NCBI RefSeq assembly: GCF_006345805.1 | Contig: NC_043006.1 | Coordinates: 9,362,001-9,426,000, forward strand | Direction: 5' to 3' | Source: Octopus sinensis | Taxonomy: Eukaryota | Length of the DNA stretch: 64,000 bases | Part shown: positions 50,157-58,533 of the stretch, piece after piece | Layout: each line of letters opens with the position of its first letter | Numbering within the stretch: position 1 is the stretch's first letter | Program-made: the position numbers and the translations under genes | The notes under the pieces: generated by a model | The model's input: only the letters and a program-made list of their open reading frames with translations | What the model was told of the DNA's origin: nothing | Database searches by the model: none

Positions 50157-50995
50157 TATATATACATATATATATACATATATATATATTATGTATACAC
50201 ACCTATGTATATATATATATACATATATATATATATGTATACACACCTATGTATATATATATATATATATATACGCATAGATATGTATATACATATCAAT
50301 ATATGTGTGTACGTGTATGTATACATATACAGCCATGCATAGACACATATATCATAAACCGTAAACGAGATTTGATGCAATGGAAAAACCAAGTCGAAGT
50401 ACAACAATACGTTTCAGTAACATAACATGAGGACAGAACTCCATTTCTAAACATACTTACATAAACACACTATAATGTCTGTAGAGAATCGTATTGTAGA
50501 AAAAACAGGGGGAAAGAATAAAAACAATTACCATAATTCTCTGGTTTAAAGAAAACATAGCATATAAATGGAGATTCGATGTTATAGAAAATATATTCTA
50601 ACATAAACAGAAAACACTCACTACAGAATTCTATTGAGGGAAAAGGGAAAAAATACCATATTTTCTACATAATAATTGGTGGGTTGCTTAGAGAATATTT
50701 CCAATTAACTGAACAATACAAAGGACGTAATAACCGTAACAGATAACCACAAATACCATTGACAGGAATTACAAGCAGCAACAATCCCTCGCATATTAAC
50801 TGACTCGAAAAGAATCAGATTGAACGTCCGAAGTATTGTAACGCATTTGTCTCCCGATTTTCAGTTTATCTATTTATTTGTCGTATATGTTCTAATATAT
50901 ATATATATATATAATATATATAATATATATAATATATATATATATAGATATATATATATATATACACACATATGTACCTACATATATATACCTAC

Positions 50996-51072
<77 letters not shown>

Positions 51073-51075
<3 letters not shown>

Positions 51076-51414
51076 ATTGCAGCGTGGAAGGTGTTTATAA
51101 GCCGTTTAAGAAACACACAAAAGCCGTTCGATTCATTTCAACATTTAAGTTTAATTTGTCAAAATATTTTCGTCGCTAAAATCCGCGACCTGTTCACTGA
51201 CAAAGTCCGTGCTGCAGCACGGACTTTGTCAGTGAACAGGTCGCGGATTTTAGCGACGAAAATATTTTGACAAATTAAACTTAAATGTTGAAATGAATCG
51301 AACGGCTTTTGTGTGTTTCTTAAACGGCTTATAAACACCTTCCACGCTGCAATTGTTTTCGTTTCAGCACACGATCTCAGATCAAATTACTTGCTATGCG
51401 AGTACATCTCCGTA
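51073..51414. mobile_element. Perfect 284-bp palindrome (51073-51356) plus ~58-bp tail, in (TA)n; putative PLE terminus
   Basis: Arms are exact reverse complements about CTG|CAG at 51214/51215 with no spacer. Confidence 0.9.
51225..51274 (+). ncRNA. Minimal hammerhead ribozyme, G3:C8 core variant; mirror copy 51155-51204 on minus strand
   Basis: TTTGTCA-GTGAACA-G-GTCGC GGATTTTA GCGAC-GAAA-ATAT-TT-TGACAAA: 7-bp stem I, 5-bp stem II, palindromic stem III AATATT. Confidence 0.8.
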
Positions 51415-51551
51415 ATATATAATATATATATATATAATATATATATATAGATCTATACATCTATAATATATATATACATATATATACATATATATATAGA
51501 TATATACATATATATACATATATATATATATATATACATATATATAACATA

Positions 51552-51585
<34 letters not shown>

Positions 51586-51751
51586 CATATACATATTATA
51601 TATATACATTATATATATATATATATCTATATATATATATATATATACATATTTATATATATATATATTACATATATTTATATATATATACATATTTATA
51701 TATATATATATATACATTATTTTATATATATATACATATATTATATACTAT

Positions 51752-51790
<39 letters not shown>

Positions 51791-52095
51791 TTATATATAT
51801 ATATATATACATATATTATATATATATATATACATATTTATATATATATATACATATATTTATATATATATATATATAAATATATTTATATATATATAAA
51901 TATATGTATATATAATATATATATATAAATATATATATATAAATATTATATACATATATAATATATACATATATATATATACATATATTTATATATATAT
52001 TATATATATATATGCAATATATATATATAATTATACATATATTTATATATACATATATTATATATATATATATATATACATATATTTATATATAC

Positions 52096-52176
<81 letters not shown>

Positions 52177-52190
52177 TATATATTTATATA
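51415..52190. repeat. ~775-bp degenerate (TA)n tract
   Basis: Direct inspection. Confidence 0.97.
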
Positions 52191-52925
52191 CGTGGCCGTA
52201 GCCAGTACCGCATCGACTGGCCTCCGTGCTGTGGGCGCGTAAGAAACACCATCCATCTGGCACCTGTGTCGGAGACACAAAAAACATCATCCGAAGACCC
52301 AGCAAGACTAGTCACGCCATAACCCGTGGCCCCTACCTGGGACGTTGTCAGTTCACCTGTGCATACCTTCCTTCCTTCTTGTGACACTTGTGAAGACCTG
52401 TTGATGCAAGTGAAAATCAAATCAAATCAAATCAAAATAGATGAACATCAATGGAATTTGTATCTTTGCGGTACCAGTGCCGGTGGCATACAAGAAAACC
52501 ATCCGAACGTGGCCGTAGCCAGTACCGCATCGACTGGCCTCCGTGCTGTGGGCACGTAAGAAACACCATCCGATCGTGGCCGTACGTCAGCCTCGTCTGG
52601 CACCTGTGTCGGTGGCACATAAAAACACCATCCGAGCGTGGCCGTTCGCCAGCCTCGTCTGGCACCTGTGTCGGTGGCACATAAAAACACCATCCGAGCG
52701 TGGCCGTTCGCCAGCCTCGTCTGGCACCTGTGTCGGTGGCACATAAAATCACCCACTACACTCTCGGAGTGGTTGGCGTTAGGAAGGGCATCCAGCTGTA
52801 GAAACACTGCCAGATCTGACTGGCCTGGTGCAGCCTTCGGGCTCCCCAGACCCCAGTTGAACCGTCCAACCCATGCTAGCATGGAAAGCGGACGTTAAAT
52901 GATGATGATGATGATGATGATGATG
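52191..52925 (+). mobile_element. RTE-type SINE or non-autonomous retroposon with internal 62-bp tandem repeats and (ATG)n tail
   Basis: Three 62-bp units at 52559-52744; GGCGTTAGGAAGGGCATCCAGCTGTAGAAA motif; tail CGTCCAACCCATGCTAGCATGGAAAGCGGACGTTAAA(TGA)n; nested LINE-like 3' end with (AAATC)n at ~52296-52440. Confidence 0.7.
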
Positions 52926-58160: not shown

Positions 58161-58533
58161 TGGTCGCCATAGCGTCGACTGTGGGTCGGTGTCTGTGTAC
58201 AGTCACCTTTACGTCGTCCACAGCGAGCTGTAGTCGTCGTAGCGTCGACTGTGGGTCGGTGCCTGTGTACAAACGCCTCTACGTCGTCCAGAGCAAGCTC
58301 TGGTCGCCGTAGCGTCGACTGTGGGTCGGTGCCTGTGTACAGTCACCTTTACGTCGTCCACAGCGAGTTGTAGTCGTCGTAGCGTCGACTGTGGGTCGGT
58401 GCCTGTGTACAGTCACCTTTACGTCGTCCACAGCGAGCTGTAGTCGTCGTAGCGTCGACTGTGGGTCGGTGCCTGTGTACAGTCGCCTCTACGTCGTCCA
58501 CAGCGAGCTGTGGTCGCCGTAGCGTCGACTGTG
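58161..58533. repeat. 70-bp GC/CpG-rich minisatellite, ~5.3 units
   Basis: Units start at 58161, 58231, 58301, 58371, 58441 and 58511; consensus TRGTCGYCGTAGCGTCGACTGTGGGTCGGTGCCTGTGTACAGTCACCTTTACGTCGTCCACAGCGAGCTG. Confidence 0.97.

What the first reader, a model, noticed from the sequence alone, without database searches (positions are those of the whole stretch)
51225..51274. Hammerhead with naturally swapped G3:C8 catalytic-core pair (GUGAACA)
Seen: stems I (TTTGTCA/TGACAAA) and II (GTCGC/GCGAC), GAAA and palindromic stem III are all perfectly placed. The CUGANGA box reads GUGAACA, so exactly positions 3 and 8 are exchanged, and there is one extra G after A9. Established: C3 and G8 form a Watson-Crick tertiary pair in the active hammerhead, and the double swap partly rescues activity that single changes destroy. 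Inference: covariation at precisely this pair argues for selection on catalysis. Standard CUGANGA searches would miss this family. The UUU cleavage triplet predicts slow cleavage, after position 51267.
Basis: partly seen in the sequence, partly recalled or inferred. Interest (0 to 1): 0.8.

Follow-up and report, generated by a model that had tools for sequence, protein, structure and literature searches.

The report
Swapped-core hammerhead in Penelope retrotransposon
This 50-base motif is one of about 5,000 genomic copies of a hammerhead-shaped RNA at the end of a Penelope-type jumping gene, nearly all with two paired core letters swapped (G3:C8 instead of C3:G8); it likely still cuts itself slowly, which is untested, and would be a natural version of a known laboratory rescue mutant.

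Summary
The motif is a minimal type I hammerhead in the pseudo-LTR of a young Penelope-like retrotransposon (RT plus GIY-YIG ORF about 1 kb upstream in longer copies). G3:C8 is the family state: 5,102 copies with G3 against 199 without, kept in three subfamilies of different age. The sister family has C3:G8 at the homologous place and other relatives have U3:A8; 12 of 13 aligned motifs keep a 3:8 pair, in three forms. That supports selection on the pair, but cleavage is untested. Genomic 5' ends do not pile up at the predicted cut (2 of 98). They pile up about 15 bases upstream of the motif and carry an extra G (13 of 16), the likely trace of a cap, so the RNA that gets copied is probably capped and uncut. 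This particular copy is a truncated insertion inside a perfect 284-base palindrome and is probably inert. The extra G after A9 and the palindromic helix III are published features. I found no natural G3:C8 in the papers I could search; this scan noted it before on other DNA (10 notes, at least 6 genomes). New variant of a known kind.

The parts
51225..51274 (+). Minimal type I hammerhead motif with G3:C8 core
   Evidence: Sequence, fold, alignment with relatives
51232..51239 (+). Core box: G3 (51232), U4, G5, A6, A7, C8 (51237), A9, plus one extra G before stem II
   Evidence: family counts
51240..51257 (+). Stem II (5 pairs) and 8-base loop II; the loop is 7, 8 or 9 bases in the three subfamilies
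   Evidence: covariation across families
51258..51267 (+). GAAA box, self-complementary 6-base helix III, U17; predicted cut after 51267
   Evidence: hammerhead numbering; cut site is predicted only
51215..51356 (+). Right arm of the palindrome: 5'-truncated pseudo-LTR of the Penelope-like element, up to its first 3' end
   Evidence: 95% identical over 147 bases to the 3' end of an ORF-bearing copy
51357..51416 (+). 60-base tail present on one arm only; about half of the copies carry it
   Evidence: 49 of 98; alignable with the sister family's tail
51073..51214 (-). Left arm: inverted, tail-less second copy of the pseudo-LTR
   Evidence: 142 bases, 100% complementary, no spacer
51155..51204 (-). 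Second, identical hammerhead motif on the minus strand
   Evidence: Mirror of 51225-51274
50895..51069 (.). (AT)n microsatellite, left flank, likely the insertion target
   Evidence: most copies abut (AT)n
51415..52190 (.). (AT)n microsatellite, right flank

Best explanation
The motif is the minimal hammerhead of a Penelope-like retrotransposon's pseudo-LTR, in which the 3:8 core pair is G:C throughout the family, and it likely still self-cleaves, slowly and probably only as a dimer or with the element's protein. Shown: position about 1 kb behind an RT + GIY-YIG ORF, family-wide G3:C8, C3:G8 in the sister family, U3:A8 in other relatives. Inferred: a promoter in the pseudo-LTR starts a capped RNA about 15 bases before stem I; most of this RNA stays uncut and is reverse-transcribed from the two 3' start points into (AT)n targets, often from both DNA ends, which gives inverted pairs like this one. 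Inferred: selection acted on the few source elements, not on copies such as this one, whose read-through RNA would form one long hairpin. My odds: hammerhead homologue in a Penelope-like element 0.97; 3:8 pair kept by selection 0.85; measurable cleavage under suitable conditions 0.65.
For: ORF link: 24 of 30 loci found by the ORF's C-terminus carry the G3:C8 core 865-1137 bases downstream, 1 is a decayed variant, 5 show none. ORF of 1042 codons with RT motifs and a YIG endonuclease end; homologues hit RVT_1 and GIY-YIG weakly, 4 of 31 each. Family state: 1,729 exact young copies, 4 with C3, all 4 still C8; 5,102 G3 against 199 non-G3; in copies picked by a downstream word, G3 in 74 of 75 and C8 in 69 of 76; in the oldest subfamily, picked the same way, G3 9 of 12 and C8 9 of 12. 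Sister family (54% protein identity, sister on the tree with SH-aLRT 99) has C3:G8 at the homologous place. A further family has U3:A8 in 13 of 18 matches (counted by eye). Pair count: 12 of 13 motifs paired, C:G 6, G:C 3, U:A 3, 0 of 500 shuffles as high; stem II 4 of 4 counted pairs fully paired, 3 with changes on both sides. Loop II length of 7, 8 or 9 bases excludes a coding constraint. Laboratory rescue by the double swap: PMC11167929, PMC9901934. Cap trace: G just before the start in 13 of 16 copies that stop there and 0 of 4 that continue; 21 of 27 and 0 of 23 in the other loci; PMC11702581 reads such a G as mRNA capping for L1.
Against: No cleavage data. Only 2 of 98 copies begin within 3 bases of the predicted cut, 1 exactly, and that one is an inversion junction. 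Within the lineage the core is unchanged (0 of 11) while 15 of 82 downstream columns changed, but this is not significant (p = 0.13). The three G:C rows are one lineage, so the pair count rests on 11 lineages (10 paired) and the shuffle test ignores kinship. The rows were picked by me from scan hits and by eye: 8 of 20 metagenome loci gave a motif. G3 is predicted to pair with U17 (p about 0.67), which could trap an inactive fold. Inverted pairs are far more common than the tandem pairs that a dimer needs (10 of 28 loci with both strands, 0 with same-strand repeats only). 325 of 5,102 copies lack C8 and about 39 of the first 100 have G8, more than the mirror change at position 3 (counted by eye). 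Relatives tolerate C9 and an inverted 15.1-16.1 pair, so the core is under loose constraint.
Confidence: 0.65

Rival explanations
1. The hammerhead fold, 3:8 pair included, is kept for a role other than cutting, such as a binding site for the RT-endonuclease protein or a structure that marks the 5' end of the RNA for copying.
For: The copied RNA appears capped and uncut. In the anole element, hammerhead mutants do not affect insertion in vitro and no reads end at the cut site (PMC11167929). Cervera and de la Pena leave functions other than cleavage open. Several relatives carry core changes expected to lower activity.
Against: The 3:8 pair is a feature of the active conformation (PMC3884650), and G5, G12 and A13 are kept in the aligned motifs apart from one misaligned row. 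The anole hammerhead does cut with protein and its double swap partly rescues.
Confidence: 0.22
2. The ribozyme is a dispensable relic in this lineage: two neutral changes happened to restore a pair and were carried along by a successful source element.
For: Going from C:G to G:C needs two transversions through an unpaired state, so loss was at least tolerated for a time (inference). One origin is enough to explain all G:C copies. The within-lineage test is not significant. Naiad elements spread without canonical hammerheads (PMC8557442).
Against: The core and stems survived three waves of amplification (median divergence about 3, 8 and 23%) while N7, loop II and helix III length changed. 10 of 11 lineages keep a pair in three forms. 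No C3:G8 revertant or unpaired subfamily stood out; G8 copies are scattered over the tree.
Confidence: 0.11
3. The motif is a chance look-alike or an assembly artefact of the palindrome.
For: Perfect spacer-less palindromes can be assembly or library artefacts (own knowledge). Rfam gives no hammerhead match.
Against: 0 hits in 150 resampled windows; thousands of dispersed copies with 0 control matches; the element is in contigs of the three DNA-type or unlabelled runs laid with no change of 3% or more at positions 3 or 8; inverted pairs with varied junctions are common. Rfam also misses canonical relatives.
Confidence: 0.02

Closest known systems
Minimal type I hammerheads (min-HHRs) in pseudo-LTRs of metazoan Penelope-like elements (Cervera and de la Pena 2014, PMC4209133; Lunse et al. 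2017, not held)
   Same: Place in the pseudo-LTR, type I topology, extra base between 9 and 10.1, G10.1-C11.1 pair, short palindromic helix III, many single truncated copies and opposite-strand pairs, a known covariant at 3:8 (U3-A8).
   Different: The 3:8 pair is G:C. I found no natural G3:C8 in the parts of that paper I read or in its searchable supplements.
Hammerhead of the anole Poseidon element PAc (Frangieh et al. 2024, PMC11167929)
   Same: Penelope-like element, AT-rich target, tail between two 3' ends, uncut RNA as the main template; the engineered C3G/G8C double mutant partly cuts.
   Different: There G3:C8 is a laboratory mutant; here it is the natural state. There the ORF starts in stem II; here no frame runs through the motif. 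The protein here has a cysteine linker before the endonuclease, unlike Poseidon.
Natural core variants of hammerheads (Perreault et al. 2011, PMC3088659)
   Same: Covariation at 3:8 in nature, and U15.1-A16.1 as seen in relative L113.
   Different: Only U3-A8 is reported at 3:8 in the section read; four G3:C8 core words were absent from 11 searchable supplements.
C-terminal-endonuclease Penelope-like clades Neptune / Nematis (Craig et al. 2021, PMC8557442)
   Same: RT followed by GIY-YIG, DKSG motif, CxxxCxxC linker, Cys/His residues in the endonuclease, (TA)n target, inverted truncated 5' partner, one-sided tail.
   Different: Clade not tested against reference sequences; the short linker looks more like the two Nematis rows seen. 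The tail is about 60 bases against the 30-40 described.

Membership tests
Hammerhead ribozyme, type I | Three helices around the core, ends in helix I | tested here: met
   Stems I and II at pairing probability 0.93 or more in single-arm context; helix III only as a 6-base self-complementary stretch
Hammerhead ribozyme, type I | U4, G5, A6, A9, G12, A13, A14, A15.1-U16.1 | tested here: met
   majority in all subfamilies
Hammerhead ribozyme, type I | Literal C3 and G8 (CUGANGA) | tested here: not met
   G3 and C8; hence a variant, not a canonical member
Hammerhead ribozyme, type I | Watson-Crick pair between 3 and 8 | tested here: met
   G:C here; 12 of 13 aligned motifs paired
Hammerhead ribozyme, type I | NUH cleavage triplet | tested here: met
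   UUU at 51265-51267
Hammerhead ribozyme, type I | Self-cleavage 3' of residue 17 | not testable with these tools
   Only contigs were served, no raw reads; genomic 5' ends do not mark the site
Hammerhead ribozyme, type I | Match to an Rfam hammerhead model | tested here: inconclusive
   No match, but canonical-core relatives also give none
Hammerhead ribozyme, type I | Loop I-loop II tertiary contact | not tested
   Loop II varies in length and sequence; no contact was looked for
min-HHR of Penelope-like elements | Located in the pseudo-LTR of an RT + GIY-YIG element | tested here: met
   24 of 30 ORF-anchored loci
min-HHR of Penelope-like elements | Extra base between 9 and 10.1, G10.1-C11.1, palindromic helix III | tested here: met
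min-HHR of Penelope-like elements | Acts as a dimer | tested here: inconclusive
   Helix III duplex is only -0.2 kcal/mol and the free cofold is a non-hammerhead duplex; same-strand neighbours are rare
Penelope-like element (EN+, C-terminal) | Single ORF with RT then GIY-YIG endonuclease | tested here: met
   (Pfam hits weak and only in homologues; none for the protein itself)
Penelope-like element (EN+, C-terminal) | 5' truncation, inverted partner, one-sided tail, (TA)n target | tested here: met
Neptune or Nematis clade | Placement in an RT tree with reference elements | not tested
   Tree held no reference sequences; motifs compared by eye only
Non-LTR retrozyme | Head-to-tail tandem arrays of hammerhead-bearing monomers | tested here: not met
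   No tandem array at the locus; copies are dispersed or inverted

The most novel reading that the evidence does not exclude
The 3:8 pair is a rate dial. Penelope-like families place a hammerhead just behind the cap site and tune it with C:G, U:A or G:C at 3:8 so that enough capped, uncut RNA survives to be copied, while the cut (removing the cap and first 58 bases) is released only by dimer formation or protein binding. The G3:C8 family would be an attenuated ribozyme that spread to thousands of copies because it cuts poorly.
Probability: 0.2. Interest if true: 0.75.

Novelty: new variant of a known kind. Interest (0 to 1): 0.5.

Why it matters
The C3G/G8C swap is a classic laboratory proof of the active hammerhead structure; a natural family that has carried it through three waves of amplification shows that evolution uses the same solution, and that hammerhead searches should ask for a 3:8 pair rather than for CUGANGA. 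Sister families with C:G, U:A and G:C in one genome make an open question testable: what hammerheads do in Penelope-like elements. The copy ends add a genomic readout: a likely cap site 15 bases before the motif and almost no copies starting at the cut.

Tried and rejected
Rfam scan: only hairpin and AT-repeat noise. Idea that the window copy differs from the family at 3 and 8: rejected, the two differences lie at 51293 and 51325. Idea of a C3:G8 subfamily with the same stem II: none among 4 matches and none among the 100 of 199 listed. Idea of a G3:G8 source lineage: G8 copies are scattered over the tree and over subfamilies, weak support on short sequences. Cut-site pile-up of 5' ends: not found. 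Within-lineage selection test: a Fisher test on hand-entered counts gave p = 0.011; the scripted version gave p = 0.13 and 0.10 and replaces it. One search had stem II brackets off by one column; one search is the corrected count. No ORF remains were found beside the U3:A8 family or the oldest subfamily, so their link rests on pseudo-LTR similarity. The tree is the quick version, with long branches. PDB search gave one weak RT hit. Coding constraint on the motif: rejected, loop II changes frame between subfamilies.

Full report
Observation. The 50-mer folds as drawn (z = -3.40) and a matching descriptor finds nothing in 150 resampled windows. The motif is one arm of a perfect 142 + 142 base palindrome, 51073-51356, between two (AT)n tracts.

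The family. The arm is a dispersed repeat in the 2.7-Gb genome G000, likely an octopus (inference from a source's name for a homologous protein). A 23-letter pattern with positions 3, 7, 8 and the extra base left free has 1,729 matches and 0 control matches; only 4 have C3, and all 4 keep C8. With the loop left free, 5,102 matches have G3 and 199 do not; 325 of the 5,102 lack C8. In 98 copies picked by a downstream word, independent of the motif (98 distinct copies recovered from 99 of the first 100 listed places out of 5,335), G3 stands in 74 of 75 and C8 in 69 of 76 copies that cover it. So G3:C8 is the source state, not a quirk of this copy.

The parent element. Longer copies carry, about 1 kb upstream on the same strand, an ORF with RT motifs and a C-terminal YIG endonuclease; the longest open frame is 1042 codons. 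Of 30 loci found by the ORF's C-terminus, 24 have the G3:C8 core 865-1137 bases downstream, 1 a decayed core and 5 none. Pfam gives no hit for the protein itself and weak RVT_1 and GIY-YIG hits in 4 of 31 homologues each. 5' truncation, inverted partners, a one-sided tail and (TA)n targets match Penelope-like elements as described in PMC8557442 (passages). The clade was not tested; the linker resembles Neptune/Nematis by eye.

History of the pair. Three subfamilies with loop II of 8, 9 and 7 bases have median divergences of about 3, 8 and 23% (the oldest group there included one misfiled young copy). The oldest, sampled by a downstream word (30 of 159 matches, 12 kept as still covering the core, 18 dropped), has G3 in 9 of 12 and C8 in 9 of 12. 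Between oldest and youngest, 0 of 11 core positions changed against 15 of 82 downstream columns; this is suggestive only (p = 0.13). The sister family (54% protein identity; sister on a quick tree, SH-aLRT 99) has a hammerhead at the homologous place, with an alignable downstream region and tail (score 12 against a shuffled maximum of 4), and its core is C3:G8 with C9. A further family has U3:A8 with C9 in 13 of 18 matches (by eye). Of 20 related metagenome loci, 8 gave a motif downstream of the ORF match: C:G five times, U:A twice, A:G once (two found by eye). On the 13-row alignment the 3:8 pair holds in 12 rows, in three forms, and 0 of 500 shuffles reach this; stem II is fully paired with compensatory changes. 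The three G:C rows are one lineage, so the independent count is 10 of 11, and the shuffle does not allow for kinship.

What the copy ends say. If the RNA were cut efficiently after U17 and the 3' piece copied, insertions should often begin at 51268. Only 2 of 98 begin within 3 bases of it, while 66 of 98 begin in the 31 bases just before the core (ends at 51224-51227 are partly an alignment effect of subfamily differences). Copies that stop at the position equal to 51210 carry a G in front in 13 of 16 cases, whereas copies that continue upstream have C or T there (0 G of 4); the other loci give 21 of 27 and 0 of 23. An extra 5' G is read as the copied mRNA cap in L1 insertions (PMC11702581, passage), and Penelope has an internal promoter in its repeat (PMC2377424, passages). 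I infer a capped start 15 bases before stem I and an uncut RNA as the main template. A rival reading is several short source copies that each begin with G; it needs independent sources in two subfamilies. The result agrees with the anole element, where unprocessed RNA is the main substrate and the hammerhead cuts only with protein (PMC11167929, passages and first half of the main text).

This locus. The window copy begins about 3 bases downstream of the inferred start and has no ORF remains nearby. A transcript of one arm would fold the hammerhead, but read-through of both arms gives one long hairpin with zero probability for stems I and II. It is probably an inert insertion.

Mechanism, shown and inferred. 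Shown: anatomy, place, family state, covariation, end distribution. From papers: the double swap partly rescues (PMC11167929; PMC8495972, one passage; PMC9901934, passages); minimal hammerheads of these elements cut poorly and as dimers (PMC4209133, parts 1-2 of 4; PMC6765202, passages); a G3-C8 variant does better with G17 than with C17, data not shown (PMC3884650, passages), which fits the predicted G3-U17 wobble here (p about 0.67). Inferred: slow, conditional cleavage; selection on source elements. Against: no cleavage data, few tandem pairs, loose cores in relatives, an unexplained excess of G8 among decayed copies.

Novelty. Full-text searches for natural G3:C8 cores returned only laboratory swaps and natural U3-A8 (PMC3088659, section 8; PMC4209133). 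Supplement searches for four G3:C8 core words found none (one file not searched, figures are not held). PMC6155905 and PMC10085705 (passages) and bioRxiv 10.64898/2026.07.22.740005 (abstract) added nothing on this. Lunse et al. 2017, with many Penelope-associated variants, Martick and Scott 2006 and Hammann et al. 2012 could not be read; the first could already hold this variant. This scan has 10 earlier notes on G3:C8 hammerheads in at least 6 other genomes, phages and protist elements among them; none in this genome or on this sequence. They are unchecked and I did not test them. What is added here is a large family, its history, the sister contrast and the end analysis. Verdict: new variant of a known kind, interest 0.5.

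Noticed in passing
Family-wide; position equal to window 51210 (e.g. L229, L237, L252, L284): Many copies start at one site 15 bases before stem I and carry an extra G absent from longer copies, likely the copied cap; this would map the element's transcription start from DNA alone.
   Followed up: yes
L073:5364-5412 (sister family), L220:1497-1548, L114:2490-2538: Three related hammerheads have C instead of the normally fixed A9, combined with C3:G8 or U3:A8.
   Followed up: partly
L113:4966-5018: A related metagenome element has a hammerhead with U15.1-A16.1 instead of A15.1-U16.1, and an open frame of 1632 codons.
   Followed up: no
G000, one search list: Among copies that lost C8, about 39 of the first 100 have G, roughly twice the share of the mirror change at position 3 (about 19 of 100); the copies do not form one clade. 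Unexplained.
   Followed up: partly
L071, minus strand, just upstream of 7577: The 1042-codon frame has no early start codon and is preceded by a pyrimidine-rich stretch ending in AG, possibly an intron end as in Penelope.
   Followed up: no
L077:4320, L082:1696-1725, L073:7064: Other hammerhead-like motifs with canonical cores and long stem II lie in flanks, probably from other Penelope-like families; one is itself palindromic.
   Followed up: no
window 52473-52753 and 58163-58533: GC-rich tandem repeats of 62 bases (4.5 copies) and 70 bases (5.3 copies); the first looks like part of a short interspersed repeat (recalled resemblance, not tested).
   Followed up: no
L131:1729-1773: A distant relative has an otherwise good hammerhead with A3 and G8, the one unpaired case in the alignment.
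   Followed up: no
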